This document shows positions 13,107 to 57,126 of a stretch of 64,000 nucleotides of DNA, piece by piece; the stretch's first letter is position 1, and every line of letters starts with the position of its first letter. The notes under the pieces are model-generated. The model saw only the letters and a list, made by a program, of their open reading frames with translations. It was not told where the DNA came from and did no database searches. A program made the translations under genes and the position numbers. This DNA is from Candidatus Pacearchaeota archaeon (GTDB lineage Archaea > Nanobdellota > Nanobdellia > Pacearchaeales > GW2011-AR1). The DNA lies in assembly GCA_017608405.1 (NCBI GenBank), contig JAFCFX010000001.1, positions 7,667 to 71,666 on the forward strand, written 5' to 3'.

Positions 13107-13107
13107 C

Positions 13108-20045: not shown

Positions 20046-20147
20046 ATGTCTCTGAGGGGATTTTGGCTCAGAACAAGTTCTGGCCTGCGTTTTGATAAAT
20101 CAAAACACAAACCAAGGTTAAAATCATAATGTCTCTGAGGGGATTTT
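20046..20147 (-). repeat. 19-nt direct repeat of the tRNA-CAU 3' end (20046-20064 and 20129-20147) bracketing a 64-nt two-hairpin module
   Basis: ATGTCTCTGAGGGGATTTT occurs twice. Between the copies (tRNA orientation) are hairpins GTTTTGA/TCAAAAC and GGCCAGAA..TTCTGAGCC, the same architecture as the module downstream of tRNA-Val. Confidence 0.6.
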
Positions 20148-21478: not shown

Positions 21479-21793
21479 TTAGAATAAAGAAGAAGATATT
21501 AGGGCTATTATGTTTAGAATTATTAATGAGTTTAGAATTTTAAGTGTTTTTACTCTTTTTTTTATGCTTTCATTTATGTTGTATTTGTTTGAAAAAGTTG
21601 TTTTAAATATGGGATTTGCAGCAAATAATGTTAGATTGGTTATTTTATGAGTGAACTTGGTAGGGTTTAATTCATGGTATAAGCTTGGAGATTTATTTTT
21701 GATATCGCTCATTATGCTATTCAAATATAGGTATCTAATTATTGCTAGAACCATTAAGGTAACTGCTAGTATTATTGTAAGGTAGAGATTCAT
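21479..21793 (-). CDS. Hypothetical membrane protein
   Basis: 104 aa, hydrophobic N- and C-terminal segments; 4-nt overlap with endA. Confidence 0.35.
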   Translation of the reverse strand: MNLYLTIILAVTLMVLAIIRYLYLNSIMSDIKNKSPSLYHELNPTKFTHKITNLTLFAANPIFKTTFSNKYNINESIKKRVKTLKILNSLIILNIIALISSSLF

Positions 21794-40182: not shown

Positions 40183-40254
40183 GGGCGCATAGTTTAATGG
40201 ATAGAATTTCCGGTTTCGGCCCGGTTGGTGGAGGTTCGATCCCTCCTGCGCCCG
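40183..40254 (+). tRNA. tRNA-Arg (anticodon UCG), no intron
   Basis: GGGCGCA-TA-GTTT-AATGGATA-GAAT ... TCCGG-TTTCGGC-CCGGT ... GGAGG-TTCGATC-CCTCC-TGCGCCC-G. Anticodon assignment is moderately confident; position 27.43 is mismatched. Confidence 0.6.
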
Positions 40255-40262
40255 TTTTTAAA

Positions 40263-41528
40263 ATGAAAAAATCAAAAGCAGTTCCAGGAGATTATGTAGA
40301 AGTGCATTTGACTAGATTAATTTATGAAGGAGTTCTTTTGGAAGTTCCTGAGTCTGAGAAATCTATGATCTTGTTGAAGTTGGATAATGGATACAATATT
40401 GGATTGTCTAAAAAAGATATTTTAGAGATTAAGCTTATTAAAAGAGCTAAAGAAGAAAAAAGTAAAATTGAAATAAAAAAAGATCCAGGTAAGCCAAATA
40501 TTGCCATGATTATTACCGGGGGAACAATTGCCGCAAGACTAAATCCAAGAAAAGGGGGGGTGGATTGGTTGACAAGTTCTGAGGATTTGTTTAAATTTTA
40601 TCCTGAATTATTTGAAAAGGTTAATGTTTCTAGGGTTGAAATTCCTTTTATGAAAGCTTCTGAAGATATGGATTTTAAAGATTGGCAAAAGCTTGCGCGA
40701 GTTGTTCAAAAGTTATTGAATGATCAACAGATTAAAGGAGTCGTAATTACCCATGGAACTGATTTTTTACATTATACTGCTGAAGCTTTGTCTTTCTTTT
40801 TGAGGGATTTGAATAAGCCAGTTGTTTTAACTTATAGCCAGAGATCTATTGATAGGGCTTCAAGTGATGCTAATTTAAATTTGCAGTGTTCTGCTTTGGC
40901 TGCGATTTCAAATATTGCTGAGGTTATGCTTGTTGGCCATGCTAATTCTAATGATGATTTTTGTTATGCAATGCCTGGAACGAAAGTAAGAAAACTTCAT
41001 TCTTCTAGGAGAGATGCTTTTAGAGTTGTTAATTCTAAGGTTTTTGCTAAGATTTTTAGTAGTAAAATGGAAATTTTAAGTGAGCATAAAATTAGAAATA
41101 AAGGGAAAGTTAAACTAGATTTGGATTTTGAAGACAAAGTCGCGTTAGTTAAATTTTATCCAGGGCAAGATCCAGACATACTGGATTATTATGTTAAAAA
41201 AAAGTATAAAGGAATAGTCTTAGAGATGGGGGGATTGGGGCATGTTGCGACTAAAAGGGCTAGAAATTCTTGGACAAAGAAGTTAACAGAAGTTCAGAAA
41301 AAGGGTTTGATTGTTTGTGCTACTGCCCAGACAATTAATGGAAGATTAGATCCTTTGGTTTATTCTAATGGTAGGGAATTGTTAGAGACAGGAATTATCT
41401 ATCTAGAAGATATGTTGAGTGAGACAGCCTTAATTAAGTTAAGTTGGGTTTTAGGACATAAAGATTGGAATGTTAAAGAAAAAATGTTAGAAAATGTTTC
41501 TAAAGAATTTGGGGATAGATTGGGGTGA
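40263..41528 (+). CDS. gatD: Glu-tRNA(Gln) amidotransferase subunit D (GatD)
   Basis: Asparaginase-like domain with IITGGTIA and THGTDFL motifs after a GatD-specific N-terminal domain. The track ORF begins inside the tRNA; the internal ATG at 40263 (MKKSKAV...) is the plausible start. Confidence 0.75.
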   Translation: MKKSKAVPGDYVEVHLTRLIYEGVLLEVPESEKSMILLKLDNGYNIGLSKKDILEIKLIKRAKEEKSKIEIKKDPGKPNIAMIITGGTIAARLNPRKGGVDWLTSSEDLFKFYPELFEKVNVSRVEIPFMKASEDMDFKDWQKLARVVQKLLNDQQIKGVVITHGTDFLHYTAEALSFFLRDLNKPVVLTYSQRSIDRASSDANLNLQCSALAAISNIAEVMLVGHANSNDDFCYAMPGTKVRKLHSSRRDAFRVVNSKVFAKIFSSKMEILSEHKIRNKGKVKLDLDFEDKVALVKFYPGQDPDILDYYVKKKYKGIVLEMGGLGHVATKRARNSWTKKLTEVQKKGLIVCATAQTINGRLDPLVYSNGRELLETGIIYLEDMLSETALIKLSWVLGHKDWNVKEKMLENVSKEFGDRLG

Positions 41529-41960
41529 TTATTTTTTATATTTTCTTCTTAATATTAGATTCTTAATTTCCCGAATTTCTTTTTCTGCTTTTTTATTTAT
41601 TTTATAATCAAATTCTGCTTTTGCTCTATCTCTCTGGGTTTGTCTGTTCTGGCTCATTAATATGATTGGTGCTTGGATAGCTGCAAGGCAAGATAATGCT
41701 AGATTTAATAAGATAAATGGGTATGGATCAAAAGCTCCTGTTTGTTTGTATTGGATTAGATAATATCCATTGATAAACATCCATGCACCAATAAAAATGA
41801 AGAAAATTATTATAAATGTCCAGCTTCCTGCCCAATTTGTGATCTTATCTGATGCTTTTTGTCCAAAGGTTCTTGGCCCCCTAAAAATTGGATGTTTTAA
41901 TTTAAAGAAGAGTTTTTCTCTTAATTCTTTTTTTGCTTTCTTTTCTTCATCCTTTTTCAT
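41529..41960 (-). CDS. Membrane protein, DUF1003-like
   Basis: Two TM helices (WTFIIIFFIFIGAWMFINGYY, FILLNLALSCLAAIQAPIILMSQNR) flanked by charged helical regions. Confidence 0.45.
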   Translation of the reverse strand: MKKDEEKKAKKELREKLFFKLKHPIFRGPRTFGQKASDKITNWAGSWTFIIIFFIFIGAWMFINGYYLIQYKQTGAFDPYPFILLNLALSCLAAIQAPIILMSQNRQTQRDRAKAEFDYKINKKAEKEIREIKNLILRRKYKK

Positions 41961-42031
41961 ATTTATACAGGGAAAAGGTTTTTTATAAACTTTACCAAAA
42001 AAGTAATAAACTCTTTTGTTTTGTTAGCTTA

Positions 42032-43471
42032 ATGCAGTTAGATTATGAAAAACTTGGATTTAAGTCAGGATTAGAAATTCACCAGCAGCTTGATACCAAT
42101 AAACTATTTTGTAATTGTCCTTTTTTGTTAAGAAAAGATGAACCTGATTTTGAAATTAAAAGAAGACTTCATGCAGTAGCAGGAGAGAGCGGAAAAGTTG
42201 ATATAGCTGCCAAACACGAAGCTAGTTTAGACAAGGATTTTATTTATCAAGGATATGATACTACTTGTTTAGTTGAGTTAGATGAAGAACCGCCTCACGA
42301 AATTAATTCAGAAGCTTTGGAAATAGCTTTACATATTTCTTTATTATTAAATTGTGAGATTCAGCCAATTACCCAGGTAATGCGAAAAACAGTTATTGAT
42401 GGTTCTAATACTTCTGGTTTTCAGAGAACCGTTATGATAGCAAGGGATGGTTATATTGAAACAAGTAAAGGTAAGGTGGGTATCTGGTATATTTATTTAG
42501 AAGAAGATGCTGCTAGAACAATTAGTGAGGACGAGAATTCTAAAACTTATAGGTTAGATAGATTGGGGGGTCCGATGGTTGAAGTTGTGACAGCTCCAGA
42601 TATAAAAGATGCAGAACATGTAAAAGAAGTTGCTTTGAAAATAGGAGATATTTTAAGGAGTTGTAAAGTTAAAAGAGGTATTGGAACAATTAGACAAGAT
42701 ATTAATGTTTCAATAAGAGGGCACCCAAGAGCTGAAATTAAGGGTTTTCAGGATCCAAAGGTATTTCTTGAAGTTGTGAATAAAGAGATTGAAAGGCAAT
42801 TAGGAAATGTAGGAAAAAAAATAAAAACAAAGCCAGAGGTAAGAGGAGCAAATGAAGACAATACAACTAAATTTCTAAGACCAATGCCAGGAGCAGCTAG
42901 GATGTATCCTGAGACAGATCTTCCTATTTTAAAGATTTCTCAACAAGTGATTAATCAGGCTAAGAAATCTCTTCCTATGTTAAGAAGTGACTTACAATCT
43001 GAATTAAGAAAAGAAGGGCTTAGTGAAGAGTATATTAGGATGTTGTTTAAGCAAAACAAGATCGAAGAATATAAGGAACTTTTAGAAGTAATTAATAAGC
43101 CCCAGTTAATTGCAAAGACTCTTTTGGTTTTTCCAAAAGATATTGCTAAAAGAAAAAATAAATCTTTAGCAGAAGTTGAAAAGATTTTAGAAGATAATTA
43201 TAATGGTGTTTTTTATTTAGTCAAAAGAAGACAAATTTCTGAGTCTCATGTTAAAGATGTTTTAAGTGCTATTGTTGATGGAAAGGGCTTAGATGATGCA
43301 ATTAAACTTGAGAAAGTAGATATTGGTGATGTTGAGGAAAAAATCCATAAGATTATTAAGGAAAAACCAGGACTTTCTGAAAAAGCTTATATGGGGTTAG
43401 TTATGAAGGAATTTAAGGGTCAGATTGATGGTAAACAAGTTATGGAGATAATTAAGAAATTTGTAAAATAA
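42032..43471 (+). CDS. gatE: Glu-tRNA(Gln) amidotransferase subunit E (GatE)
   Basis: Start at internal ATG 42032. GLEIHQQLDTNKLFCNCP is the GatB/GatE N-terminal signature; 480 aa with the GatE-type insertion and C-terminal YqeY-like tail. Confidence 0.7.
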   Translation: MQLDYEKLGFKSGLEIHQQLDTNKLFCNCPFLLRKDEPDFEIKRRLHAVAGESGKVDIAAKHEASLDKDFIYQGYDTTCLVELDEEPPHEINSEALEIALHISLLLNCEIQPITQVMRKTVIDGSNTSGFQRTVMIARDGYIETSKGKVGIWYIYLEEDAARTISEDENSKTYRLDRLGGPMVEVVTAPDIKDAEHVKEVALKIGDILRSCKVKRGIGTIRQDINVSIRGHPRAEIKGFQDPKVFLEVVNKEIERQLGNVGKKIKTKPEVRGANEDNTTKFLRPMPGAARMYPETDLPILKISQQVINQAKKSLPMLRSDLQSELRKEGLSEEYIRMLFKQNKIEEYKELLEVINKPQLIAKTLLVFPKDIAKRKNKSLAEVEKILEDNYNGVFYLVKRRQISESHVKDVLSAIVDGKGLDDAIKLEKVDIGDVEEKIHKIIKEKPGLSEKAYMGLVMKEFKGQIDGKQVMEIIKKFVK

Positions 43472-43483
43472 GTTTATTTGATA

Positions 43484-44839
43484 TTATTTTAATTTTTTTT
43501 CTAAGATTTCTTTGGCTATTTTAAAGTCAGCTCTTTTGTTTGTCAATCTCATAATTTGTCCGACTAAAAAATTAATTGCCCAAGATTTTCCATTTTTGTA
43601 ATCTTCTACTGCTTTTTTGTTTTCTTTTATAACTTTTATAGCTAATTTTTCTATTTCTTGTTTTCCTGAAATTGTTGAATGTTTTTTAAGATCTTTTTTT
43701 GGTGAAAAAGATTTTGGAATAAATTTTCTTAAAATTTCTTGTGCTTTGAGTTCTGTTATTTCTTTTTTCTCTATTAAGTTTAACAGTTCTATGAAATGTT
43801 CTGGTTGTATGTTGACTTCATCTAGTTCTTTTTTATTGTAGTTTAAAATGTTGAGCAGTTCCACAATTACCCAGCGTATTGCTAGGCTTGGATCTGATTT
43901 TTCTATTATTTTTTCAAAAAATTCAACAATTTCTATTTTCTTAGTTAGAATTTGAGCATATTTTTTTCCTACTTTGTATTTTTTAATTAATTTTTCTAGT
44001 TTTGTTTTTGGTGTTTCTGGTAAAGATGCTTTTAGACTTTGTATTCTTTTTTTATTTATTTTTATTGTTGGAAGATCGGGGTCAGAAATAAATCTATAAT
44101 CTTGAGCTTCTTCTTTCGATCTCATTTTGGCTGTTGTTTTTCTTGATTCATCATATCTTCTTGTTTCTTGTTTTCTTGGTAAATCTTTATGTTGCCTTTT
44201 GATTTCATATTCGATTGCATTTTTTATGTTGTTTAGGCTGTTGATGTTTTTTACTTCTACTCTTTCTCCACCTTTAATTGATATATTTACATCTGCTTTT
44301 AATCCTGCAAATTTATCAATTGTTTTTATATAACTTAAAACAGAAATTAGTTCTTTTAACCATTCTATTACTTGTGTTGAATTTTTAAAATCTGGTTCTG
44401 TTACAATTTCTATTAAAGGGGATCCTGAACGATTATAGTCAATTCCTCCTGTTTTTGGGTTCCATGCTGCAGGGTCTTCTTCTAAATGAACTTCTGTTAT
44501 TTTTATTCCTAAAAATTTTCCTTTTTCTCCATTTGGAATTGCATGGGGGCCAGACATTGTATTTTGATATCCTTTTGGCAGATCTGGCCAATCATAATGT
44601 TTCCTTTGCCAAGTTATTTTTTCATTGATTTTGCACCCTAAAATTAGGGCTATTTTAATTGCCTTATCTAGTGCTTCTTTATTTGGGAGTAGGGGTTTGG
44701 CTCCTGGTTGTCCTGTACAAATTGGACAAATATTTATATTTGGTTTTGAATGTTTGATTCCGTGTTCAGCTTTGCATGTACAAAATAATTTTTCTTTTGT
44801 TGCAATATAACCATGAATTTCTAAACCTATTTTTGCCAT
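43484..44839 (-). CDS. gatB: Asp/Glu-tRNA amidotransferase subunit B (GatB)
   Basis: IGLEIHGYIATKEKLFCTC...ICPICTGQPGAKP...RKHYDWPDLPKGYQ are conserved GatB blocks; 451 aa. Confidence 0.8.
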   Translation of the reverse strand: MAKIGLEIHGYIATKEKLFCTCKAEHGIKHSKPNINICPICTGQPGAKPLLPNKEALDKAIKIALILGCKINEKITWQRKHYDWPDLPKGYQNTMSGPHAIPNGEKGKFLGIKITEVHLEEDPAAWNPKTGGIDYNRSGSPLIEIVTEPDFKNSTQVIEWLKELISVLSYIKTIDKFAGLKADVNISIKGGERVEVKNINSLNNIKNAIEYEIKRQHKDLPRKQETRRYDESRKTTAKMRSKEEAQDYRFISDPDLPTIKINKKRIQSLKASLPETPKTKLEKLIKKYKVGKKYAQILTKKIEIVEFFEKIIEKSDPSLAIRWVIVELLNILNYNKKELDEVNIQPEHFIELLNLIEKKEITELKAQEILRKFIPKSFSPKKDLKKHSTISGKQEIEKLAIKVIKENKKAVEDYKNGKSWAINFLVGQIMRLTNKRADFKIAKEILEKKLK

Positions 44840-44925
44840 AATTGTTTGACGGGCTAGTTATTTAATAAACTTTTTATTCTGTGCTTTTAGCAAAGATTTA
44901 TAAATTATTTCTCTAGATTATCTTT

Positions 44926-45990
44926 ATGGTAAAATCAAGAATTTTGTTAATAAAAACAGGCGGAACAATAGCGCAAAAACCAGATGTAAATGGAGTTCTA
45001 AATGTTTCTTCTGCTGATTATCTTATAAAAGTGGGGGGTTTGAGAGATCTAGCGAATGTAGATGTAAAAGATGTGGGATCTATCGATAGTACAGATATGG
45101 AAACAAATTTACGATTTGAAAATTCTGGAGATAAAGGGAAAGATAGGGCAGCAATTGCAGGGGAAATTTATAAAAATGCTTCAAAATATGATGGTTTTGT
45201 TGTTGTTCATGGCACAGACACAATGGTTGAAACAGCTGCCGCATTAACTTATATGCTTCCTAATTTTAGAAAGCCGATTGTATTGACTGGCTCTCAAAGA
45301 TCTGCTTGGGTTCCTAGGAGTGATGGCCCTAATAATGTTTTTACTGCAGTGCAAACAGCTACAAAAGATTTGGGAGAGGTTGCGGTTGTCTTTGGAAATT
45401 ATGTTTTAAGAGGAACACGTGCTAAAAAAATTGATGAAGAAGGTTTTGATGCTTTTCATAGTCCAGGTGTTGAACCTATTGGAAAAGTAATTGCCTTAGA
45501 AGAGGGGGTAAGACTCGCTCCACACGCAATCAAAAGAAAGAAGTTTAGACCCAAATTATTTACAGATTTTGATACAAGAGTTTTTAATTATGATCATGTT
45601 TCTGGAGCTACTATAGATGGCGTTTTAAATGATATTGCTAAAGGTAATGAAGTACAAGGCATTTTAATGGGGGGTTTTGGTGCAGGGAATATTCCAAGCA
45701 GATTACTTGGATTTATTAAAACTGCTAAGGAAAACTATAAACCTGTTTATGTTTATACAAAATGTGATATTGGTGCTGCAGACATGGGACTTTATGCTGT
45801 GGGGGCTGCACCTTTGCAAGCAGGAGCTATTCCTGCAGGAGACATGACCCCAGAAGCTTTAGGTCAGAAACTGATGTGTGCTTTGGGGATAGGGAGAAAA
45901 TTCAAAGGCCAGAAAAGGTTAGATTTTATAGAGTCGCTTATAAGAACTCCCTTTAATGGGGATATTACTGTTACAGAAGCAAGGAAATAA
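44926..45990 (+). CDS. L-asparaginase (type I-like; GatD-related)
   Basis: IKTGGTIA and VVHGTDTM motifs; 354 aa without the GatD N-terminal domain. Confidence 0.7.
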   Translation: MVKSRILLIKTGGTIAQKPDVNGVLNVSSADYLIKVGGLRDLANVDVKDVGSIDSTDMETNLRFENSGDKGKDRAAIAGEIYKNASKYDGFVVVHGTDTMVETAAALTYMLPNFRKPIVLTGSQRSAWVPRSDGPNNVFTAVQTATKDLGEVAVVFGNYVLRGTRAKKIDEEGFDAFHSPGVEPIGKVIALEEGVRLAPHAIKRKKFRPKLFTDFDTRVFNYDHVSGATIDGVLNDIAKGNEVQGILMGGFGAGNIPSRLLGFIKTAKENYKPVYVYTKCDIGAADMGLYAVGAAPLQAGAIPAGDMTPEALGQKLMCALGIGRKFKGQKRLDFIESLIRTPFNGDITVTEARK

Positions 45991-46042
45991 TTTTAATTCT
46001 TCTTATAGAAATTATTAAAAACTATTAAACACACTTTTTAAT

Positions 46043-47359
46043 ATGGGGGATTTAAATTTAGACAAGTTTGATAAAAAGAGAAATCTAATAAGAAGTGTTT
46101 TTAGTAATAAGAAAAAAGAAGTGGAAATTGCTGGCTGGGTGTCTAATACCCGTGCATTGGGGAAAATAAGGTTTATTCTTTTAAAGGATTTTTCTGGAGA
46201 AATTCAGATTACTGCAATAAAAGGCAAAACAGATAAAAAAGTTTTTGAGGTAATGGATAAAGTTACAAGAGAATCTGTTGTTTATGTTAGAGGTTCTGTA
46301 AAAGATTCAAAACAAGCGCCAGGAGGGAAAGAAGTTATTCCAAATGAGATAAAAGTTATTGCGGGGGCAGAAAAATTGCCTATTGATGTTTCTGATTTTT
46401 CTAAGACAGATATTTCCAAGAGGCTTGATTATCGGTTTTTAGATTTACATAGAAAAAAGATTCAAGCAATTTTTAAAATACAATCAACAGTTTCAATGGC
46501 TTTTAGAGAATATTTTGTTGATCAAGATTTTATTGAGATGCAGCCTCCTTTGGTTATTGGCTCAAGTAGTGAGGGGGGAACAGAATTATTTGAAGCAAAA
46601 TATTTTGAGAAAAAAGCATATCTTGCACAAAGCCCTCAATTGTATAAGCAAATGGTTGCTTGCTCTATGGAAAAAGCCATGACTATTGCTCCTGTTTGGA
46701 GAGCAGAAAAACATAATACTGTCAGACATTTAAATGAATGTAGGCAAATGGATATTGAGGTGGCCTTTGCAAATACCATGATTGTTATGAAAAAATTAGA
46801 AGAAGTTGTGAAGTATGTTGTTAAAAAAGTTTTAGAAAAAAATAAACCCGAATTAGATTTTTTAGAAATTAAGTTGAAAATTCCTAAAGCAAAATATATG
46901 ACTTTTGCAGAAGCATCTTCTTTGATGAAGAAGAAGAAGGTTCATGTTGGAGAAGACGATTTAACAGGAGAAGCTGAGAAAAAATTAGACGAGTTATTCC
47001 CAGATACAATTGTGTTTGTTTATGATTGGCCTCTTTCTGGTAAACCATTTTATATTATGCCTAAAGATGAAAAGGTTAATGCAAAGTTAAGTGAGGGTTT
47101 TGATGCAGTCTATAAAGGAATGGAGATTTCTTCAGGAGGTCAACGGATTCATCTGCCTGATTTATTAATTTCCAGATTAAAAGCAAAGAAACTCAATATT
47201 AAGAATTTTAAGGCATACATTGATAGTTTTAGATTTGGAGCTCCTCCTCATGCAGGATGGTCAATTGGTCTTGAAAGATTTACTCAAGTTCTTTTAAGTT
47301 TGAAAAATGTTAGGGAGGCTTGCATGTTTCCTAGGGATAGGGACAGGTTGGTTCCTTGA
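46043..47359 (+). CDS. aspS: Aspartyl-tRNA synthetase (archaeal type, class IIb)
   Basis: N-terminal OB anticodon-binding domain, class II motifs (FREYFVDQDFIEMQPP; GGTELF; GAPPHAGWSIGLERF); 438 aa. Confidence 0.7.
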   Translation: MGDLNLDKFDKKRNLIRSVFSNKKKEVEIAGWVSNTRALGKIRFILLKDFSGEIQITAIKGKTDKKVFEVMDKVTRESVVYVRGSVKDSKQAPGGKEVIPNEIKVIAGAEKLPIDVSDFSKTDISKRLDYRFLDLHRKKIQAIFKIQSTVSMAFREYFVDQDFIEMQPPLVIGSSSEGGTELFEAKYFEKKAYLAQSPQLYKQMVACSMEKAMTIAPVWRAEKHNTVRHLNECRQMDIEVAFANTMIVMKKLEEVVKYVVKKVLEKNKPELDFLEIKLKIPKAKYMTFAEASSLMKKKKVHVGEDDLTGEAEKKLDELFPDTIVFVYDWPLSGKPFYIMPKDEKVNAKLSEGFDAVYKGMEISSGGQRIHLPDLLISRLKAKKLNIKNFKAYIDSFRFGAPPHAGWSIGLERFTQVLLSLKNVREACMFPRDRDRLVP

Positions 47360-47360
47360 A

Positions 47361-48692
47361 ATGAAAAAAGAGTATATTAAAGATATTTTAAAGAGAAAAA
47401 ACAAGGATGTTGTTCTTTATGGTTGGATAAAGTCTAAAAGAGTTTCTAAAGAGATTGTTTTTTTGGATGTTGTAGATTCTTCTGGCCAGATGCAAGCTGT
47501 TGTAGATAAAAAGAATGTTTCTTCTTGGAATTTGGCTAATCAAATAGCTCCTGAATCTTCTGTCCTAATTAAAGGAGTTTTGAAGCGGGGAAAAAATAAT
47601 CTTGAAGTAGGAGTAAAAACTATTCAATTGGTGGGAGATGCAAAATTAAATTTATCTCCCCGTCCGAGGCAAGATTTTGATATTTTTGGTTCATCCTATG
47701 CAGATTATGTTTTGAAAAATAGACATTTGTTTTTGAGGAATCCGAAGTTGCAGGCAGTATTAAAATTTAAGCATAAATTTCTTATTAATCTTCATAAGTG
47801 GTTTACTGAAAGAGAATTTTTGTTTTTGGATGCTCCGGTATTAACTGAGCTTTTATTGTATGATGATGATAGTGCCTTTAAATTAGACTATTCTGACAAA
47901 ATTAGTGGCAAGCAGGAAGTGTTTTTGTCTCAATGCAATACTTTTCAATTGGAGGCCGCAATACACTCTTTTGAAAAAGTATACAACATGACTCCTTCTT
48001 TTAGGGCAGAGCACAGCAAATCTAGCAGACATTTAAGAGAATACTGGCATTTGAAGGTTGAAATTGCTTGGGCAAATCTGGATGATTTGATTAAAATAGC
48101 AGGGGAAATGTTATATGCGGTGGCTAAGAATACTGTTGAGGAGTGTGGAAATGAGTTGGAGGTTTTAGGGGTTAAGGTAGATTTGGATAAACTGAAGCCC
48201 CCATATAAGCAAATAACTTATGATGAAGCATTGAAAATTATTCATTCAAAAGGCAACAAGATGAAATGGGGGAAGAGTTTTGGTGTTGAGGAAGAGATGA
48301 TTTTAACCAAAGAATTTGGGGAGAATTTTTTGTTTATTCGAGGAATCCCCTGTAGTGCAGAAGGCTTTCCTTTTTCTAGAGATAAATCAAATATTAAAAT
48401 TACTCGAACTTGTGATTTAATTGCCCCTGAAGGATTTGGAGAACTCTTGGGTACAGCAGAAAAAATTACTGACAAAAAAGAATTATTAGAAAGGATGAAG
48501 GAAAAAGGAAAAACCACTCCTGAGCAAATGAAAAGATATCAATGGTATGTTGATTTGAGAGATTATGGAATTATTCCTCATGGAGGTATAGGAATGGGCA
48601 TAGAAAGGGTTGTAAGGTATTTACTAAAAATCCCCCATGTTAGGGATACTATTTCATTTCCGAGGCTTTATGGAAGGTACCCCAACCCTTAA
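47361..48692 (+). CDS. Class IIb aaRS paralog (AsnRS-like, or a second AspRS)
   Basis: Starts 2 nt after the aspS stop. OB domain plus class II core (PSFRAEHSKSSRHLREYWHLKVEIAW; GIIPHGGIGMGIERV). Asn versus Asp specificity cannot be told from sequence by eye. Confidence 0.6.
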   Translation: MKKEYIKDILKRKNKDVVLYGWIKSKRVSKEIVFLDVVDSSGQMQAVVDKKNVSSWNLANQIAPESSVLIKGVLKRGKNNLEVGVKTIQLVGDAKLNLSPRPRQDFDIFGSSYADYVLKNRHLFLRNPKLQAVLKFKHKFLINLHKWFTEREFLFLDAPVLTELLLYDDDSAFKLDYSDKISGKQEVFLSQCNTFQLEAAIHSFEKVYNMTPSFRAEHSKSSRHLREYWHLKVEIAWANLDDLIKIAGEMLYAVAKNTVEECGNELEVLGVKVDLDKLKPPYKQITYDEALKIIHSKGNKMKWGKSFGVEEEMILTKEFGENFLFIRGIPCSAEGFPFSRDKSNIKITRTCDLIAPEGFGELLGTAEKITDKKELLERMKEKGKTTPEQMKRYQWYVDLRDYGIIPHGGIGMGIERVVRYLLKIPHVRDTISFPRLYGRYPNP

Positions 48693-48693
48693 A

Positions 48694-49671
48694 ATGACTT
48701 TTGAAAAGAAGGGAATAGATTACATGTATGACTTATATCTGGCAACTTCTAAAAAAAAATTTACCAAAGTAGTTGTCTGTCCTGAATTGTATCCTTACGC
48801 GAAATTAATTTATGAAGCTTATGACAATCCTATTAGTTTAATAGATAATTCTGGAAAATTGTTATTTTCTAGGAAAAAGAGGAAAAAACCTTTTTTTGTT
48901 TTTTTAGTGAGTAGTGGAAAAGATTCTTTAGCTACTTTTTTTAAACACAGAAAAAAACAAAAAAAACAAAATAAGTTGGTGCATGTTCTTAATATAAATC
49001 CCCTGTATCCTTTTGAAAAGAAATTGGCTAAAAGAATTTTTAAACTTTTAAGGTTAAATGTAGATTTTTTTAATTTTAAACTGAGAAAAACGGGATTATG
49101 GCTCCCTGAATCAGTTATAAAAAATCAAATGATTTATGCTTTTGTTTTAGAGAAATTAGATTTTCTCCCTTTGGCTATTGGATTTGGGGGGACTAGATAT
49201 GTTGGACCGCAATCTATGGCTTTTTTTCATGATAATTTTTTGGCTTTCAAACTTTTCCATGAGTTTGCAAACAAAGCCTGGGGAACCCATAAATTACTTC
49301 CTTTTTTAGATGACGAAATAATGGCTTATCAAATTTTGTTTAAAAAAGCTCCTACTTCAGTTTTAAATATTTTGGGGAGTTGTATGGCAGATTATAAGGA
49401 GAAAGGTAAAATAAAAAGATCGGTAGAAACGAAGTTTAACTTTTCTATCTCTAACAAATATGAATGTGGGAAGTGCTATAAGTGTGCAGAAAAAGCGATC
49501 ATTGAAGATAAATTTTTAAACAAAAAATATCCAAAAAAATATCTTTCTTTTTGTAAAAAGATAATTTCTGATAAAATAAAAGAAACTTTGAAATTAAATG
49601 GATATCCTGCTAGTTGTTTAAAACAGAGGTTTCCAAAACACTATTTGGAACGAATGGGTTTCCGCAATTAA
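48694..49671 (+). CDS. PP-loop ATP pyrophosphatase family protein (QueC/ExsB-like) with C-terminal Cys cluster
   Basis: SSGKDSL (SGGxDS PP-loop) and C-terminal CGKCYKC. Starts 2 nt after the preceding stop. Confidence 0.5.
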   Translation: MTFEKKGIDYMYDLYLATSKKKFTKVVVCPELYPYAKLIYEAYDNPISLIDNSGKLLFSRKKRKKPFFVFLVSSGKDSLATFFKHRKKQKKQNKLVHVLNINPLYPFEKKLAKRIFKLLRLNVDFFNFKLRKTGLWLPESVIKNQMIYAFVLEKLDFLPLAIGFGGTRYVGPQSMAFFHDNFLAFKLFHEFANKAWGTHKLLPFLDDEIMAYQILFKKAPTSVLNILGSCMADYKEKGKIKRSVETKFNFSISNKYECGKCYKCAEKAIIEDKFLNKKYPKKYLSFCKKIISDKIKETLKLNGYPASCLKQRFPKHYLERMGFRN

Positions 49672-49701
49672 TCTTATAAATACCTAGTTCTTTTTTAATT
49701 A

Positions 49702-49956
49702 ATGGCAGATTTCCTATTTCATAAGGTTTCAGAAGCAGAAAAAAAACAAATTCAAAAGCAGGCAAAGGTTCTTATGGATAAATTTTCCCAGAGGCTTTCT
49801 AAGATTGGGAAGCAAATAGATGACCCTCTAATTGAGAGGGGAGAAGGAGAAAGAAGAGAGGGAGGAGAAAAAATAGATTTTTCTAGGAAAATTATGTTTG
49901 AGAATGCTCCCAATAAAAATAAAGATTTTTTTGTTGTAGAGAGAAAATCATGGTAG
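49702..49956 (+). CDS. gatC: Putative GatC (amidotransferase subunit C)
   Basis: 84-aa helical protein immediately upstream of gatA and overlapping it by 7 nt, giving the classical gatC-gatA arrangement. Sequence similarity to GatC is weak, so the call rests mainly on context. Confidence 0.35.
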   Translation: MADFLFHKVSEAEKKQIQKQAKVLMDKFSQRLSKIGKQIDDPLIERGEGERREGGEKIDFSRKIMFENAPNKNKDFFVVERKSW

Positions 49957-51266
49957 TTGTTGAAAAGTTAAAAATTTATTTAGAAGAAATAAAGAAAAAT
50001 GATAAACAAGGAAATAAAATAAATTCCTTTTTACAATTAAATCCTGATGTTCTAGAACAAGCCAAGGCCATTGATTCTAAAAAAAATAAAGGAAAACTTT
50101 TTGGAAAGGTTATTGGGGTTAAGGCTAATATTAATGTTGAGGGTATGAATATAAGTTGTGCTTCTAAAACTTTGGAAAAATATAAGGCTCCTTATGATGC
50201 TACTGTGATTAAGAAAATTAAGCAAGAAGAGGGTTTGATTTTGGGTTTAACAAATATGGATGAATTTGCTTCAGGAGGAAGTGGGGAAACTTCTGCATTT
50301 GGGGCTGTTAAAAATCCCAAGGTCTTAGGCTTGATTCCTGGGGGATCTAGTGCTGGAAGTGCTGCTTCTGTTGCTGCGGGTTTTTGTGATGTGGCTTTGG
50401 GCAGTGATACAGGTGGGAGCATAAGAAATCCAGCAAGTCATTGCGGGGTTGTTGGATTAAAACCGACTTACTCAAGTGTTTCAAGATATGGTTTAATTGA
50501 TTTGAGTATGGGTTTAGATCAAATTGGTGTTTTGGCTAGGAGTGTAGGTGATGTGGCATTGTTTTTTTCAATTATCCAGGGCAAAGATGAAAAAGATGCA
50601 ATAAGTCAGGCTAGTGAGAAAATAAATTTGAAAGCCATTGAAAAAATTCCCAAGGCAATAACAGTGGGAGTTTTGGATTTTAAAATACAAGATAAGAGAA
50701 TTCAGAAATTGATTGATGAAAAAGTTAAACAGGTAGCAAAAACTAATTCTTGGAAAATAAAAAAAATTAAAATTAATAATATTGATCTTGCTGTTGAGAC
50801 TTATTATCCTTTAGTATATGTTGAGTTTTTTTCTGGAACAAGGCGTTTTGATGCTAGAAGATACGGTCAGAAAATTGAAGATGTTGCGGGGTCAGAGGTA
50901 TTAAGAAGGATTTTGGGGGGGAGTGAGATTTCAAAAGCAGAATATCGTGGAAGATATTATCATTTGGCATTGAAAGCAAAAAAACTAATTAAAGAAGAAT
51001 TTGAACAGGCATTTAAAAAAGTAGATTGTATTATTTCTCCTACTGTTCCCAAACTTCCCCATAAGATTGGTGAAAAGATTTCTGTTGAAGACATGTATGA
51101 GTATGATGCTTTAACTGCACCTGCAAATCTTGCTGGAAATTGTGCTATTTCTATTCCTTGTGGAACTGTGGACAATATTCCTGTAGGGATGCAGATAATG
51201 TGTGATAAGTTTAAAGAACAAAAACTCTTGCAAATAGCAAGAAGTTTTGAAAAGATTTTTCTTTGA
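49950..51266 (+). CDS. gatA: Glutamyl-tRNA(Gln)/Asp-tRNA(Asn) amidotransferase subunit A (amidase signature family)
   Basis: Amidase signature GGSSAGSAASVAAGFCDVALGSDTGGSIRNPAS with catalytic Ser/Ser/Lys context; 438 aa. Confidence 0.75.
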   Translation: MVVVEKLKIYLEEIKKNDKQGNKINSFLQLNPDVLEQAKAIDSKKNKGKLFGKVIGVKANINVEGMNISCASKTLEKYKAPYDATVIKKIKQEEGLILGLTNMDEFASGGSGETSAFGAVKNPKVLGLIPGGSSAGSAASVAAGFCDVALGSDTGGSIRNPASHCGVVGLKPTYSSVSRYGLIDLSMGLDQIGVLARSVGDVALFFSIIQGKDEKDAISQASEKINLKAIEKIPKAITVGVLDFKIQDKRIQKLIDEKVKQVAKTNSWKIKKIKINNIDLAVETYYPLVYVEFFSGTRRFDARRYGQKIEDVAGSEVLRRILGGSEISKAEYRGRYYHLALKAKKLIKEEFEQAFKKVDCIISPTVPKLPHKIGEKISVEDMYEYDALTAPANLAGNCAISIPCGTVDNIPVGMQIMCDKFKEQKLLQIARSFEKIFL

Positions 51267-51446: not shown

Positions 51447-52553
51447 ATGTTAAAGAATCTTTATACTGTTATAAGAAAAACAGGGGGTTATATTCCTACT
51501 GTGAGAGTTTCAAATAGTGATTTTCTTAAGGGTGAATTTTATGGGTCTGATGGCAAAAAAGTAAAATATACTAGTGGTCCTAAAGAAGGACAAGAAAAAC
51601 CAATTGAAGAAATTGTCCAGACTTTTGAAAAAATAACTGGAATAAAAGAGAGGAGATATGTTACAGATGATCTTAATGCATCTGATATTGGAACTTTAGC
51701 TGTAAAGGAATTTTTTAATGGTTCTGACATAGAAAATCTAAAATATATTATATTTGCACATAATTTTGGGGATATAAGTGCAGAGAATAAAAGATCTGAA
51801 TTTGTTCCTAGTTTGGGTGCAAGAGTTAAACTTAATCTTGGAATTGAAGATCCAAATGTAATTGCTTATGATTTGCCTTTTGGCTGTCCTGGTTGATTAG
51901 AGGCTTTTATTCAAGCAGATGAAAGATTAAAAAAAGGTGAAAAAGCATGGGCTATTGGTGCAGAAACACTATCAAGGGTTTCTCCTAGTGAGGATATGGA
52001 TGGTATGCTTTATTCTGATGGATCAGGAGCTGCAGAACTTGAAAAAATTGAAAGTGATAAACCTGTTGGGGTCTTATCTCATGTGACTCATTCTGATAGT
52101 TCTTATCTCTTGAAAATGGGAAGATCATATAATCCAAATCATAAAGGAAATGAATTATTTTTAAAAATGAATGGGCATGCTCTTTATGAATATGCTTTAA
52201 GGAATGTTCCAAAGGTTGTTAAAAAAAGCCTGGATAAAGCAGGGTTAAAACTAAAAGATGTGAAAAAGATTTTAATTCATCAAGCTAATGAGAAAATGGA
52301 TGAAGCAATAGTAAAGCGCCTGTTTAAGTTATATGGTGAAAAACCTAGTGCAGAGGAAATTAGGAATATTATACCAATGATAATTTCCTGGTTAGGAAAT
52401 AGTTCTGTTGCCACTTTGCCAACATTGCTTGATTTAGTACTTAAGGGAAAAGTAAATAATCATGGTTTAAATCCCAGAGATATTGTTGTTTTTGCTTCTG
52501 TTGGAGGGGGAATGAATATTAACTCTCTTGTTTATAAGATGCCTTGGGCTTAG
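51447..52553 (+). pseudogene. FabH-like 3-oxoacyl synthase III / thiolase-fold condensing enzyme interrupted by an in-frame TGA (51894-51896)
   Basis: Two track ORFs (51447-51896 and 51996-52553) are in the same frame and together form one thiolase-fold protein. The active-site context YDLPFGCPG-[TGA]-LEAF corresponds to FabH ...CAG-F/W..., and the downstream HQAN motif is present. TGA is used as a true stop by neighbouring genes. Confidence 0.55.
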
Positions 52554-57052: not shown

Positions 57053-57126
57053 GTCCCCGTGGCTCAGTTGGTTAGAGCGATCGGCTGTTAACCGATAGGT
57101 CGGAGGTTCGAGTCCTCCCGGGGACG
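57053..57126 (+). tRNA. tRNA-Asn (anticodon GUU), no intron
   Basis: GTCCCCG-TG-GCTC-AGTTGGTTA-GAGC-G-ATCGG-CTGTTAA-CCGAT-AGGTC-GGAGG-TTCGAGT-CCTCC-CGGGGAC-G; clean cloverleaf. Confidence 0.85.

What the first reader, a model, noticed from the sequence alone, without database searches (positions are those of the whole stretch)
40183..51266. Super-cluster of tRNA-dependent amidation machinery: gatD, gatE, gatB, L-asparaginase, aspS, a second class-IIb aaRS, PP-loop ATPase, gatC, gatA
Within 11 kb are both the archaeal GatDE (Gln) and the GatCAB-type subunits B, C(?), A, a free-standing asparaginase (GatD paralog), AspRS and an adjacent AspRS/AsnRS paralog starting 2 nt after it, all next to a tRNA-Arg. 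Having both amidotransferases plus two class-IIb synthetases raises the question of which are discriminating or redundant. This degree of clustering of indirect-aminoacylation genes is unusual and may reflect a co-regulated or co-transferred unit.
Basis: partly seen in the sequence, partly recalled or inferred. Interest (0 to 1): 0.55.

Follow-up and report, generated by a model that had tools for sequence, protein, structure and literature searches.

The report
Asparagine/glutamine tRNA-amidation gene island, odd AsnRS-like enzyme
A small symbiotic-type (DPANN) archaeon keeps almost all its genes for making asparagine- and glutamine-charged tRNAs in one 11-kb block, and the "second synthetase" in that block belongs to an apparently undescribed enzyme lineage, shared with ultra-small bacteria, whose amino-acid pocket has been rebuilt.

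Summary
Window 40183-51266 holds tRNA-Arg, gatD, gatE, gatB, a type I asparaginase, a non-discriminating-type AspRS, a second class IIb enzyme, a PP-loop ATPase, gatC and gatA.

The clustering is not chance. The block, or large parts of it, recurs in rearranged form in at least five other DPANN loci. Six of the genes form a tight co-directional string.

It resolves into two modules: (A) asparaginase-aspS-gatCAB and (B) "asnS2"-QueC-like PP-loop(-HIT).

The second synthetase is not a canonical AsnRS:
- It scores below both NCBIfam AsnRS cut-offs.
- It forms its own clade (200/200 bootstraps), about as far from AsnRS as AsnRS is from AspRS.
- It carries family-invariant replacements at pocket positions (Glu→Tyr167, Ser→Cys192, Glu→Lys232, Gln-Arg→Glu367-Lys368).
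- In several genomes it sits beside a canonical AsnRS.

The family is widespread in Patescibacteria and DPANN, where it usually lies next to an AspRS gene.

The PP-loop family is tiny. Its gene directly follows asnS2 in 13 of 13 informative loci.

GatE lacks its AspRS-like insertion domain, and this is a lineage-wide trait.

My best reading is a dual-route Asn-tRNA system of the Thermus/Deinococcus kind, with a non-canonical AsnRS. A new function for asnS2 is not excluded.

The parts
40183..40254 (+). tRNA-Arg (anticodon TCG). It marks the left border of the island and is not functionally tied to amidation.
   Evidence: ARAGORN and Rfam (58.1 bits). The same tRNA sits at the left edge of the homologous cluster in L002.
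40263..41528 (+). gatD, the asparaginase-type ammonia-generating subunit of the archaeal Glu-tRNA(Gln) amidotransferase.
   Evidence: Pfam GatD_N + Asparaginase + Asparaginase_C. NCBIfam GatD 426.6 bits against a cut-off of 310. JGI gene call of 421 aa.
41529..41960 (-). DUF1003 membrane protein. It is an interloper on the opposite strand, conserved between gatD and gatE in L002 as well.
   Evidence: Pfam DUF1003, E = 3.5e-35. L002 has the same arrangement.
42032..43471 (+). gatE, short form (479 aa). It is the kinase/transamidase subunit and lacks the roughly 125-residue AspRS-like insertion domain.
   Evidence: NCBIfam GatE 501.4 bits against a cut-off of 456, matched in two stretches. It aligns to M. 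thermautotrophicus GatE residues 1-271 and 397-613 only. All 120 best homologues are 473-510 aa.
43484..44839 (-). gatB, the kinase/transamidase subunit of GatCAB. It is transcribed divergently from the asparaginase operon.
   Evidence: Pfam GatB_N + GatB_Yqey. NCBIfam GatB 458.5 bits against a cut-off of 338.
44926..45990 (+). Free-standing type I L-asparaginase homologue. It is the first gene of the six-gene string.
   Evidence: Pfam Asparaginase and Asparaginase_C. asnASE_I 198.7 bits, below the cut-off of 260.5. Best solved relatives are archaeal type I asparaginases; the TGGT and HGTDT motifs are present. An orthologous position next to aspS/gat genes is seen in L002, L070 and L091.
46043..47359 (+). 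aspS, an archaeal-type AspRS with non-discriminating signatures.
   Evidence: NCBIfam 'aspartate--tRNA(Asn) ligase' 486.5 bits against a cut-off of 353. Pro93 lies at the T. kodakarensis Lys85 position and the L1 loop reads 'QAPGG', as in AsnRS.
47361..48692 (+). 'asnS2', a full-length class IIb enzyme of a distinct AsnRS-related lineage with a remodelled amino-acid pocket.
   Evidence: AsnRS models 319.9 bits (cut-off 414) and 290.1 bits (cut-off 342.6). Signature residues Tyr167, Cys192, Lys232, Glu367 and Lys368 are invariant or nearly so in 120 homologues. Clade support is 200/200. The AF2 model has pLDDT 92.3 and TM 0.89 to P. horikoshii AsnRS.
48670..49671 (+). QueC-like PP-loop ATPase (the alternative start at 48694 lies 1 nt after the asnS2 stop). 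It is an obligate downstream neighbour of asnS2.
   Evidence: SSGKDS PP-loop motif and a Cys238/266/269/272 cluster. AF2 pLDDT 86.5. Best compact fold match is QueC 3BL5, TM 0.70. Only 16 clusters exist in 5.8 billion proteins. It directly follows asnS2 in 13 of 13 informative loci.
49702..49956 (+). gatC (probable), the small GatCAB subunit, translationally coupled to gatA.
   Evidence: Weak GatC hits of 31 and 27 bits, below the cut-offs. There is a 7-nt overlap with gatA. Orthologues in L002 (39.7 bits), L070 (43.2 bits against 47.1) and L091 (Pfam GatC) occupy the same position.
49950..51266 (+). gatA, the amidase-type glutaminase subunit of GatCAB.
   Evidence: Pfam Amidase, E = 2.1e-116. 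NCBIfam gatA 482.5 bits against a cut-off of 481.1.
57053..57126 (+). tRNA-Asn (GUU), the presumed substrate of AspRS/GatCAB and of asnS2, 5.8 kb downstream. It has G1-C72, G73 and a 5-nt variable loop.
   Evidence: Rfam 73.9 bits and ARAGORN. Sequence read. In L070 the tRNA-Asn gene lies inside the equivalent cluster.

Best explanation
The block is a selectively maintained neighbourhood that gathers the machinery for the two amide aminoacyl-tRNAs in a genome-reduced DPANN archaeon.

1. GatD and a short GatE amidate Glu-tRNA(Gln). This is inferred from orthology.

2. Module A is type I asparaginase, non-discriminating AspRS and GatC/GatA/GatB. AspRS puts Asp on tRNA(Asn). GatB phosphorylates the side chain, and ammonia from GatA converts it to Asn-tRNA(Asn). 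This pathway is established for orthologues. I infer that the co-transcribed asparaginase turns scavenged Asn into Asp plus ammonia, so either amino acid can feed both tRNAs.

3. Module B is asnS2 plus a QueC-like PP-loop ATPase, with a HIT hydrolase in other genomes. In the window it is inserted between aspS and gatC of module A.

4. asnS2 is a complete, probably active class IIb enzyme. It keeps the tRNA anticodon-binding OB fold, motif 2 and motif 3, but its amino-acid pocket differs from every characterised AsnRS and AspRS.

My preferred reading, at about even odds on this one step, is that asnS2 is a non-canonical AsnRS that charges salvaged free Asn directly. That gives the archaeon both routes, as in Thermus and Deinococcus.

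The PP-loop partner most likely performs an ATP-dependent adenylation/amidation step linked to asnS2. Its substrate is unknown.
For: Gene identities.

Operon-like spacing comes from the coordinates. A TATA-like 'TTTATAAA' lies about 25 nt upstream of the asparaginase ATG in the 86-bp divergent region.

Recurrence in other loci:
- L002 keeps all the genes except the PP-loop gene, with an internal block rearrangement.
- L070 (Woesearchaeota): aspS-asparaginase-asnS2-tRNA(Asn)-aspS-like-gatC-gatA-gatB.
- L091: asparaginase-aspS-gatC-gatA-gatB, divergent from asnS2-PP-loop.
- L094: gatB, gatA, then asnS2-PP-loop-aspS.
- L013: gatA-gatB and aspS-asnS2 on one contig.

The window AspRS has the Pro signature of non-discriminating enzymes.

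asnS2 retains features expected of an active tRNA-charging enzyme:
- OB-fold residues Phe34, Gln45 and Arg27.
- Motif-2 Arg215-x-Glu217.
- Asp352, Glu361 and motif-3 Arg416.
- An AsnRS-like fold.

In 65 of 80 GTDB species loci asnS2 lies within 250 bp of another class IIb gene, 62 of them on the same strand. In Patescibacteria that neighbour has the discriminating-type Lys loop, while a third AspRS carries the 'AP-GG' loop. That is the AsnRS + D-AspRS + ND-AspRS + GatCAB layout known from Thermus/Deinococcus (PMC2330236 and PMC4206432).

No asnA or asnB is seen in the roughly 52 kb of the window that carries Pfam calls.
Against: - asnS2 fails both curated AsnRS cut-offs.
- The flipping-loop Glu contacts the Asn moiety in human AsnRS (PMC10831071). 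In asnS2 it is an invariant Tyr.
- The positions of Ser188, Gln190, Glu228, Gln363 and Arg364 of P. horikoshii AsnRS are replaced family-wide.
- A canonical AsnRS, above cut-off, sits directly beside asnS2 in L004, L017, L089, L097, L099 and L101. That would be redundant if asnS2 were simply an AsnRS.
- The published rule for archaea is that GatCAB is encoded only when AsnRS is absent.
- 42 of 120 family members have lost the motif-2 Arg.
- The island has strand switches and an unrelated DUF1003 gene, so it is not a single operon.
- The role I give the asparaginase is inference only.
- The rest of the genome was not available, so other AspRS, AsnRS or asnB genes cannot be excluded.
Confidence: 0.6

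Rival explanations
1. asnS2 is not an AsnRS. It is a neofunctionalised class IIb enzyme that still binds a GUN-anticodon tRNA and ATP but activates a different substrate. One possibility is Asp, making it a tRNA(Asn)-dedicated mischarging enzyme. Another is a non-amino-acid carboxylate. It would work in a pathway with the QueC-like PP-loop amidoligase and a HIT adenylate hydrolase. Asn-tRNA(Asn) in this archaeon would then be made only by AspRS + GatCAB, which would explain why the asparaginase is needed to recycle free Asn.
For: - Pocket residues are replaced in a family-invariant way: Tyr167, Cys192 and Lys232 in 120/120, Glu367 in 119/120, Lys368 in 116/120.
- By my reasoning the pocket gains net positive charge (Lys232, Lys368, Glu367), like AspRS rather than AsnRS.
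- The lineage is as far from AsnRS (32% identity) as AsnRS is from AspRS (31%).
- It co-occurs with an adjacent canonical AsnRS in six loci.
- It co-occurs with GatCAB in archaea, against the known exclusion rule.
- It is obligately linked to a PP-loop protein in 13 of 13 loci, and often to HIT, including one fusion protein, P0122.
- Loss of the motif-2 Arg co-varies perfectly with Gln191→Arg, which shows continued selection on an altered active site.
Against: - The family is near-universal in Patescibacteria, paired with a discriminating-type AspRS. That pattern fits a housekeeping AsnRS.
- The ATP-binding and tRNA-binding elements are intact.
- The best HMM and fold matches are AsnRS.
- The PP-loop and HIT partners are confined to a small DPANN subgroup, so they cannot define the family's core function.
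Confidence: 0.3
2. The adjacency has no functional meaning. In a tiny, gene-dense genome rich in translation genes, these genes ended up together by drift, and the arrangement is simply inherited by close relatives.
For: - The same 64-kb window also carries GlyRS, LeuRS, AlaRS and ProRS.
- Synteny with L002 extends beyond the cluster: ProRS and a protease on the left; Lactamase_B, TYW3, YdjM and FtsZ on the right.
- There are strand switches and an unrelated DUF1003 gene inside the block.
- Relatives L006 and L008 have asnS2 alone.
Against: - Differently ordered versions recur in lineages whose asnS2 is only 41-56% identical to the window's (L070, L091, L094, L013).
- The tRNA(Asn) gene itself lies inside the L070 cluster.
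- The block survived an internal rearrangement between the window and L002.
- Spacers of 1 nt and overlaps imply co-translation.
Confidence: 0.07
3. The block is a horizontally acquired island that was co-transferred as a unit.
For: - The asnS2 family is shared between Patescibacteria and DPANN at 40-52% identity, higher than the 33-38% seen for the neighbouring AspRS.
- The window also has a bacterial-type LeuRS.
- A tRNA gene sits at the border.
Against: - GC and skew are uniform across the window.
- There are no integrase, transposase or repeat borders.
- GatD and GatE are archaeal signature genes.
- The flanking synteny is shared with L002.
- Any inter-domain transfer concerns asnS2 (perhaps with aspS), not the whole block.
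Confidence: 0.03

Closest known systems
Dual-route Asn-tRNA(Asn) systems of Thermus thermophilus and Deinococcus radiodurans (AsnRS + discriminating AspRS + archaeal-type non-discriminating AspRS + GatCAB, no AsnA/AsnB)
   Same: An AsnRS-type enzyme co-exists with a non-discriminating archaeal-type AspRS and GatCAB. In the known systems the indirect route serves as the only Asn biosynthesis (PMC2330236 and PMC4206432). The Patescibacteria loci even show the three-synthetase layout.
   Different: Here the host is an archaeon, where GatCAB and AsnRS were reported to be mutually exclusive. The AsnRS-type enzyme belongs to a separate lineage with a rebuilt pocket. The genes are physically clustered, with an asparaginase and a PP-loop gene. 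Only one AspRS is visible in the window.
Canonical asparaginyl-tRNA synthetase (e.g. Pyrococcus horikoshii AsnRS, PDB 1X54)
   Same: Same length and two-domain class IIb architecture. TM-score 0.89 and 34% identity. Motif 2 loop 'RAE..S..RHL.E(F/Y)WH' and motif 3 are conserved.
   Different: It scores below the curated AsnRS cut-offs. Relative to P. horikoshii numbering: Glu168→Tyr, Ser188→Cys, Gln190→Thr/Ala/Gly, Glu228→Lys, Gln363→Glu, Arg364→Lys. It forms a separate clade and can co-exist next to a canonical AsnRS.
Archaeal GatDE (Methanothermobacter thermautotrophicus, PDB 2D6F)
   Same: GatD has the N-terminal domain plus asparaginase domains. GatE has the cradle/kinase domain and a YqeY-type tail. 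Both score above the curated cut-offs.
   Different: GatE lacks residues equivalent to about 272-396, the AspRS-like insertion domain. In the review's model that domain sterically prevents GatDE from docking with a class II ND-AspRS.
QueC (7-cyano-7-deazaguanine synthase, B. subtilis, PDB 3BL5) and other PP-loop ATP pyrophosphatases
   Same: SGGxDS PP-loop, a Rossmann-like core and a C-terminal Cys...CxxCxxC cluster. QueC is the best compact fold match, TM 0.70, and there are weak QueC HMM hits in 11 of 16 members.
   Different: About 330 aa against about 220, with an extra conserved N-terminal region of about 70 residues and C-terminal helices. The window copy has no Pfam hit. The family is tiny and always follows asnS2. 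Nothing links it to 7-deazaguanine genes.
aaRS paralogues with non-translational roles (AsnA and archaeal asparagine synthetase AS-AR, EpmA/PoxA, GluQRS)
   Same: A synthetase catalytic core is retained while amino-acid or acceptor specificity is altered. NCBIfam reports secondary similarity to asparagine synthetase A models (141.9 bits, below the cut-off of 368).
   Different: Those class IIb-derived paralogues have lost the anticodon-binding domain. asnS2 keeps it, with the conserved Phe, Gln and Arg residues.

Membership tests
GatDE (archaeal Glu-tRNA(Gln) amidotransferase) | GatD has a GatD-specific N-terminal domain followed by the two asparaginase domains and scores above the curated equivalog cut-off. 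| tested here: met
   Pfam GatD_N, Asparaginase and Asparaginase_C. NF003217 426.6 bits against a cut-off of 310.
GatDE (archaeal Glu-tRNA(Gln) amidotransferase) | GatE has a GatB/E catalytic (cradle) domain plus a YqeY-like tail and scores above the curated cut-off. | tested here: met
   GatB_N E = 1.4e-54. GatB_Yqey 36.6 bits against a cut-off of 27. NF003107 501.4 bits against a cut-off of 456.
GatDE (archaeal Glu-tRNA(Gln) amidotransferase) | GatE carries the AspRS-like insertion domain, the feature that distinguishes GatE from GatB. | tested here: not met
   The protein aligns to 2D6F GatE residues 1-271 and 397-613 only. It is 479 aa against about 620. All 120 nearest homologues are equally short.
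GatCAB | GatA (amidase signature family) and GatB both score above the curated cut-offs. | tested here: met
   gatA 482.5 bits against 481.1 (marginal). gatB 458.5 bits against 338.
GatCAB | A GatC subunit is present. | tested here: inconclusive
   The 84-aa ORF gives 31 and 27 bits against cut-offs of 64 and 52. Support comes from the 7-nt overlap with gatA and from positional orthologues that hit GatC models.
Non-discriminating archaeal-type AspRS | Archaeal-type architecture (no GAD insertion, about 430 aa) and a score above the ND-AspRS equivalog cut-off. | tested here: met
   438 aa. NF003483 486.5 bits against 353. TIGR00458 460.9 bits against 368.4.
Non-discriminating archaeal-type AspRS | Anticodon-domain determinants: Pro at the T. 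kodakarensis Lys85 position and His at the Trp26 position. These determinants are cited from my own memory of the published mutagenesis work. | tested here: inconclusive
   Pro93 is present at the Lys85 position, but Ser34, not His, is at the Trp26 position.
Non-discriminating archaeal-type AspRS | The enzyme aspartylates tRNA(Asn) as well as tRNA(Asp). | not testable with these tools
   This needs an aminoacylation assay.
Canonical AsnRS | Scores above the curated AsnRS equivalog cut-offs. | tested here: not met
   NF003037 319.9 bits against 414. TIGR00457 290.1 bits against 342.6. A neighbouring true AsnRS in L004, L017 and L089 scores 438-465 bits.
Canonical AsnRS | Conserved residues that contact the amino acid: the flipping-loop Glu, the 'QSxQ' Ser and Gln, the motif-2-distal Glu, and the 'GGSQR' Arg. 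| tested here: not met
   Tyr167, Cys192, Thr194, Lys232, Glu367 and Lys368 stand in their place, invariant or nearly so across 120 homologues. The role of the flipping-loop Glu is taken from PMC10831071. The roles of the other residues are from my own knowledge of AspRS and AsnRS structures.
Canonical AsnRS | Class II motifs 2 and 3 and an OB-fold anticodon-binding domain. | tested here: met
   SFRAE, GMGIERVVR and the OB-fold residues Phe34, Gln45 and Arg27 are conserved. The fold gives TM 0.89 to 1X54.
Canonical AsnRS | Asn-specific aminoacylation of tRNA(Asn). | not testable with these tools
   This needs biochemistry.
QueC | A PP-loop SGGxDS motif and a Cys-rich zinc site. | tested here: met
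   SSGKDS in the window copy and SGGKDS in the family. Cys238, Cys266, Cys269 and Cys272 are at least 90% conserved.
QueC | A match to the Pfam QueC model above the gathering score. | tested here: not met
   The window protein has no hit. The best family member reaches E = 1.5e-6. One PADLOC QueC hit of 23.8 bits was found for L089.
QueC | Genomic or functional link to 7-deazaguanine synthesis (queD, queE, tgt). | tested here: not met
   None of the 13 neighbourhoods shows such genes. The constant neighbour is asnS2.
Type I L-asparaginase | Both asparaginase domains with the catalytic TGGT and HGTDT motifs. | tested here: met
   Pfam hits with E = 3.7e-49 and 3.6e-17. The motifs are visible in the alignment to 5OT0.
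Type I L-asparaginase | A score above the NCBIfam subfamily cut-off. | tested here: not met
   198.7 bits against a cut-off of 260.5. The L070 orthologue scores 257.8 bits.

The most novel reading that the evidence does not exclude
asnS2 defines a third functional lineage of class IIb synthetase-like enzymes beside AspRS and AsnRS (LysRS aside). It would be a tRNA(Asn/Asp)-binding, ATP-using enzyme whose rebuilt pocket (Tyr167, Cys192, Lys232, Glu367, Lys368) handles something other than free asparagine. In some DPANN it would act in a three-enzyme pathway with a QueC-like PP-loop amidoligase and a HIT adenylate hydrolase. Examples of what that pathway might be: a dedicated Asp-tRNA(Asn) mischarging step, an adenylate-based amidation route parallel to GatCAB, or a tRNA-linked modification. 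If so, most Patescibacteria and many DPANN that are now scored as 'AsnRS-positive' would in fact rely on a different chemistry.
Probability: 0.3. Interest if true: 0.85.

Novelty: new variant of a known kind. Interest (0 to 1): 0.62.

Why it matters
How asparagine entered the genetic code, and why so many organisms keep the indirect tRNA-dependent route, are long-standing questions.

This locus offers a compact, testable system. It places an archaeon with GatDE, GatCAB, an ND-type AspRS and an AsnRS-like enzyme side by side, contrary to the reported archaeal rule that GatCAB and AsnRS exclude each other.

More broadly, the AsnRS-like gene represents a lineage present in most ultra-small bacteria and many DPANN archaea. 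Annotation pipelines name it inconsistently: 'asparagine--tRNA ligase', 'aaRS-related protein' or 'hypothetical'. Every pocket residue I could map differs from characterised enzymes.

Whether it is a second structural solution for recognising asparagine or an enzyme with a new substrate, a handful of standard assays would settle it. Either answer would change how translation capacity is inferred for these organisms.

The short GatE is also relevant to models of how the transamidosome discriminates its tRNA and synthetase partners.

Tried and rejected
- Exact look-up of the 443-aa asnS2 failed because the public gene call uses an upstream ATG (461 aa). The gatB look-up found the contig.
- Five full-text searches for a prior description found nothing relevant. 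They covered an AsnRS-like lineage in Patescibacteria/DPANN and an asparaginase-aspS-gatCAB operon. AARS Online and the 2017 aaRS survey list only AsnRS, AspRS and AsxRS classes.
- PADLOC gave no defence-system match for asnS2, the window PP-loop protein, HIT or DUF1003. I therefore dropped a defence-island reading.
- I considered the asparaginase as a second GatD for GatB. I rejected this because it lacks GatD_N and is closer to free asparaginases.
- I considered the PP-loop protein as an AsnB-like asparagine synthetase. No Asn_synthase hit appears even at E = 10; QueC, PAPS reductase and NAD synthase are the weak hits. This remains only a speculative function.
- I considered it a bona fide QueC. 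I rejected that on thresholds, size, rarity and context.
- I considered a horizontally transferred island. I rejected that on composition and flanks.
- The first bootstrapped tree script timed out. I re-ran it with a faster distance method.
- L010 could not be analysed by ORFs because it appears to use another genetic code.

Full report
**1. What is there**

The window is archaeal. It has GatDE, intron-containing tRNAs and about 31% GC. It is part of a 152-kb metagenomic contig, JGI Ga0366824_1000030.

GatE homologues at 63-72% identity are labelled Nanoarchaeota or Pacearchaeota. The nearest named relative of the second synthetase is Candidatus Aenigmarchaeum, at 62%. The organism is therefore a DPANN archaeon.

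| Gene | Coordinates | Note |
|---|---|---|
| gatD | 40263-41528 | starts 8 nt after tRNA-Arg(TCG), 40183-40254 |
| gatE | 42032-43471 | |
| gatB | 43484-44839 | minus strand |
| type I asparaginase homologue | 44926-45990 | |
| aspS | 46043-47359 | |
| second class IIb gene | 47361-48692 | |
| PP-loop protein | 48670/48694-49671 | |
| gatC | 49702-49956 | weak hits; see below |
| gatA | 49950-51266 | |

An unrelated DUF1003 gene lies between gatD and gatE on the other strand.

From the asparaginase to gatA the spacers are 52 nt, 1 nt, an overlap (or 1 nt), 30 nt and -7 nt. The 86-bp region shared with the divergent gatB contains a TATA-like TTTATAAA about 25 nt before the asparaginase start. 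I infer one six-gene transcript plus gatB from a shared control region. This was not tested.

**2. Is the clustering meaningful?**

A relative, L002, has proteins 53-78% identical to the window's. It keeps gatB, asparaginase, gatD, DUF1003, gatE, aspS, the second synthetase, gatC and gatA between the same tRNA-Arg and the same right-hand flank. In L002 the gatB-asparaginase block lies on the other side of gatD-gatE. That alone could be inherited synteny.

Differently ordered versions occur in more distant lineages:

- **L070 (Woesearchaeota):** aspS, asparaginase, second synthetase, the tRNA-Asn gene itself, an AspRS-like gene, gatC, gatA, gatB.
- **L091:** asparaginase-aspS-gatC-gatA-gatB, divergent from second synthetase-PP-loop.
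- **L094:** gatB and gatA next to second synthetase-PP-loop-aspS.
- **L013 (Parvarchaeota):** gatA-gatB and aspS-second synthetase on one contig.

Other relatives have the second synthetase alone.

I conclude that two modules exist:

- **Module A:** asparaginase-aspS-gatCAB.
- **Module B:** second synthetase-PP-loop, with or without HIT.

In the window, B sits inside A, and the GatDE genes lie alongside.

Nothing suggests a mobile island. Composition is uniform and there are no integrase or transposase genes at the borders.

**3. The AspRS**

It scores above the curated cut-offs for 'aspartate--tRNA(Asn) ligase'.

Aligned to T. kodakarensis AspRS, it has Pro93 at the Lys85 position and Ser34 at Trp26. 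Its loop 'QAPGG' matches the AsnRS and ND-AspRS pattern. From memory of published mutagenesis, Lys85→Pro confers tRNA(Asn) recognition, so a non-discriminating enzyme is likely.

The tRNA-Asn(GUU) at 57053-57126 has G1-C72, G73 and a 5-nt variable loop. A 5-nt variable loop is the feature the review attributes to archaeal GatCAB substrates.

**4. The second class IIb enzyme ("asnS2")**

Its best models are AsnRS, but it falls below both cut-offs: 319.9 bits against 414, and 290.1 against 342.6.

Its AF2 model (pLDDT 92.3) superposes on P. horikoshii AsnRS at TM 0.89 with 34% identity. It is therefore a complete two-domain class IIb protein.

Conserved features:
- OB-fold residues Phe34, Gln45 and Arg27.
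- The motif-2 loop.
- Asp352 and Glu361.
- Motif 3.

The positions that bind the amino acid are not conserved. Relative to P. horikoshii AsnRS:

| P. horikoshii AsnRS | asnS2 |
|---|---|
| Glu168 (flipping loop) | Tyr167 |
| Ser188 | Cys192 |
| Gln190 | Thr194 (variable) |
| Glu228 | Lys232 |
| Gln363-Arg364 | Glu367-Lys368 |

Across 120 homologues, Tyr167, Cys192 and Lys232 are invariant, Glu367 is present in 119 and Lys368 in 116. The window AspRS and two AsnRS references have Glu, Ser, Asp/Glu, Gln and Arg at these positions.

The flipping-loop Glu contacts the asparagine moiety in human AsnRS (PMC10831071). The roles of the other residues rest on my knowledge of AspRS and AsnRS structures.

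In a neighbour-joining tree the family is monophyletic in 200 of 200 bootstraps. Mean identities are 32% to AsnRS and 25% to AspRS, compared with 31% between AsnRS and AspRS.

A subclade of 42 of the 120 has lost the motif-2 Arg. The loss co-varies perfectly with Gln191→Arg next to Cys192. That looks like a relocated catalytic arginine, and therefore like continued selection on activity.

**5. Distribution of asnS2 and what it implies**

The family occurs in Patescibacteria of many phyla and in Aenigm-, Micr-, Parv- and Woesearchaeota. Sources name it 'asparagine--tRNA ligase', 'amino acid--tRNA ligase-related protein' or 'hypothetical'.

In 65 of 80 species-level loci another class IIb gene lies within 250 bp, 62 of them on the same strand. 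Fourteen loci have two extra class IIb genes.

In Patescibacteria the direct neighbour is an archaeal-type AspRS with the discriminating-type 'VKLGG' loop. The additional, non-adjacent AspRS has 'AP-GG'. This mirrors the Thermus/Deinococcus set of AsnRS, D-AspRS, ND-AspRS and GatCAB. It is my main reason to favour a real, if unorthodox, AsnRS.

Against that reading:
- A canonical AsnRS above cut-off sits directly beside asnS2 in L004, L017, L089, L097, L099 and L101.
- In archaea GatCAB was reported only where AsnRS is absent. Yet at least five DPANN loci carry both.

I could not find the lineage described in the searchable literature.

**6. The PP-loop protein**

The window copy has no Pfam or NCBIfam hit. 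The family has only 16 clusters in 5.8 billion proteins.

Its features:
- An SGGKDS motif.
- Strongly conserved ESVIKNQ and GFGGT..GPQSMAFFHD motifs.
- A Cys238...Cys266-x2-Cys269-x2-Cys272 cluster.

The AF2 model (pLDDT 86.5) best matches QueC in compactness (TM 0.70), followed by TtuA, GMP synthetase and NAD synthetase. Eleven of 16 members weakly hit Pfam QueC.

A profile search finds a wider, heterogeneous superfamily of 401 representatives. It includes fusions to DNA methylase, PLP-enzyme and GNAT domains.

In all 13 loci where the upstream sequence exists, the gene directly follows asnS2.

A HIT-family gene is adjacent in L089, L090, L096, L097, L099 and L101/L004, and is fused in P0122. 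The window's only HIT gene is 29 kb away.

PP-loop enzymes adenylate carboxylates for amidation or thiolation, and HIT enzymes hydrolyse acyl-adenylates. This is established knowledge. I therefore infer an adenylate-based step coupled to asnS2. The substrate is unknown.

**7. GatE**

The 479-aa GatE aligns to M. thermautotrophicus GatE residues 1-271 and 397-613. It therefore lacks the AspRS-like insertion domain. All 120 closest homologues are equally short, so this is a lineage trait rather than a local deletion.

The review notes that this domain was modelled to clash with a class II ND-AspRS. Its absence removes that barrier. Whether it changes substrate range is untested.

**8. Verdict**

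The components GatDE, GatCAB and ND-AspRS are ordinary. Their consolidation with an asparaginase, and above all the embedded asnS2-PP-loop pair, are not.

I rate the finding a new variant of a known kind. The function of asnS2 is the open point:
- About 0.5-0.6 that it is a non-canonical AsnRS.
- About 0.3 that it has a different substrate or role.

Noticed in passing
window 17211-18860 (+), 22361-24808 (+), 27496-29181 (-), 37405-38853 (-): The same 64-kb window also encodes GlyRS, a bacterial-type LeuRS (leuS_bact 907 bits against leuS_arch 203), a short 561-aa AlaRS and ProRS. With AspRS and asnS2 that makes seven synthetase-type genes in about 65 genes. The bacterial-type LeuRS hints at bacterium-to-DPANN gene exchange.
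   Followed up: partly
window 42032-43471 and homologues P0283-P0401: GatE without the AspRS-like insertion domain is the norm in this DPANN group: 120 of 120 best homologues are 473-510 aa. I found no description of this in the searched literature.
   Followed up: partly
window 808-919 (-), 13262-13399 (+), 20130-20259 (-); 21790-22308 (-): Rfam finds three long tRNA genes (112-138 nt, presumably intron-containing) that ARAGORN misses. A tRNA-splicing endonuclease gene lies nearby.
   Followed up: no
L070 12270-13675: In a Woesearchaeota genome the tRNA-Asn gene lies inside the equivalent cluster. It is followed by an AspRS-like paralogue whose aspartate-binding residues are degenerate ('LRQDPQLHRQ', with the Asp of 'SIDSE' lost), just upstream of gatCAB.
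   Followed up: partly
asnS2 family (P0050-P0120 subset; L017, L070, L089, L090): Loss of the class II motif-2 arginine (FR→HA, FS, HS or FA; 42 of 120) co-varies perfectly with Gln191→Arg in the 'S(Q/R)C' motif. This suggests a relocated catalytic arginine.
   Followed up: partly
L089 4928-5389, L090 8982-9455, L097, L099, L101, P0122; window 19217-19585: A divergent HIT-family protein, with 'LHAKLFP' instead of HxHxH, is adjacent to or fused with the PP-loop protein in several genomes. The window has only a distant stand-alone HIT gene.
   Followed up: partly
window 51447-51896 and 51996-52553 (+): A KAS-III/ACP_syn_III-like gene appears split into two consecutive ORFs. This could be a frameshift, a pseudogene or a two-piece gene.
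   Followed up: no
window 41529-41960 (-) and L002 6086-6502 (-): A DUF1003 membrane-protein gene is conserved between gatD and gatE on the opposite strand in both genomes. No link to amidation is apparent.
   Followed up: no
L010 (CAUTND010000003.1) 10001-17500: This locus (asnS2, gatA, gatB, aspS) aligns end to end by tblastn, but its ORFs are broken under genetic code 11. It is probably a Patescibacteria lineage with a reassigned stop codon.
   Followed up: no
window 34921-37044 (+): A DisA-type diadenylate cyclase gene is followed directly by a DHH/DHHA1 phosphoesterase gene. This is a likely c-di-AMP synthesis and degradation pair, and L002 also has the DHH gene nearby.
   Followed up: no
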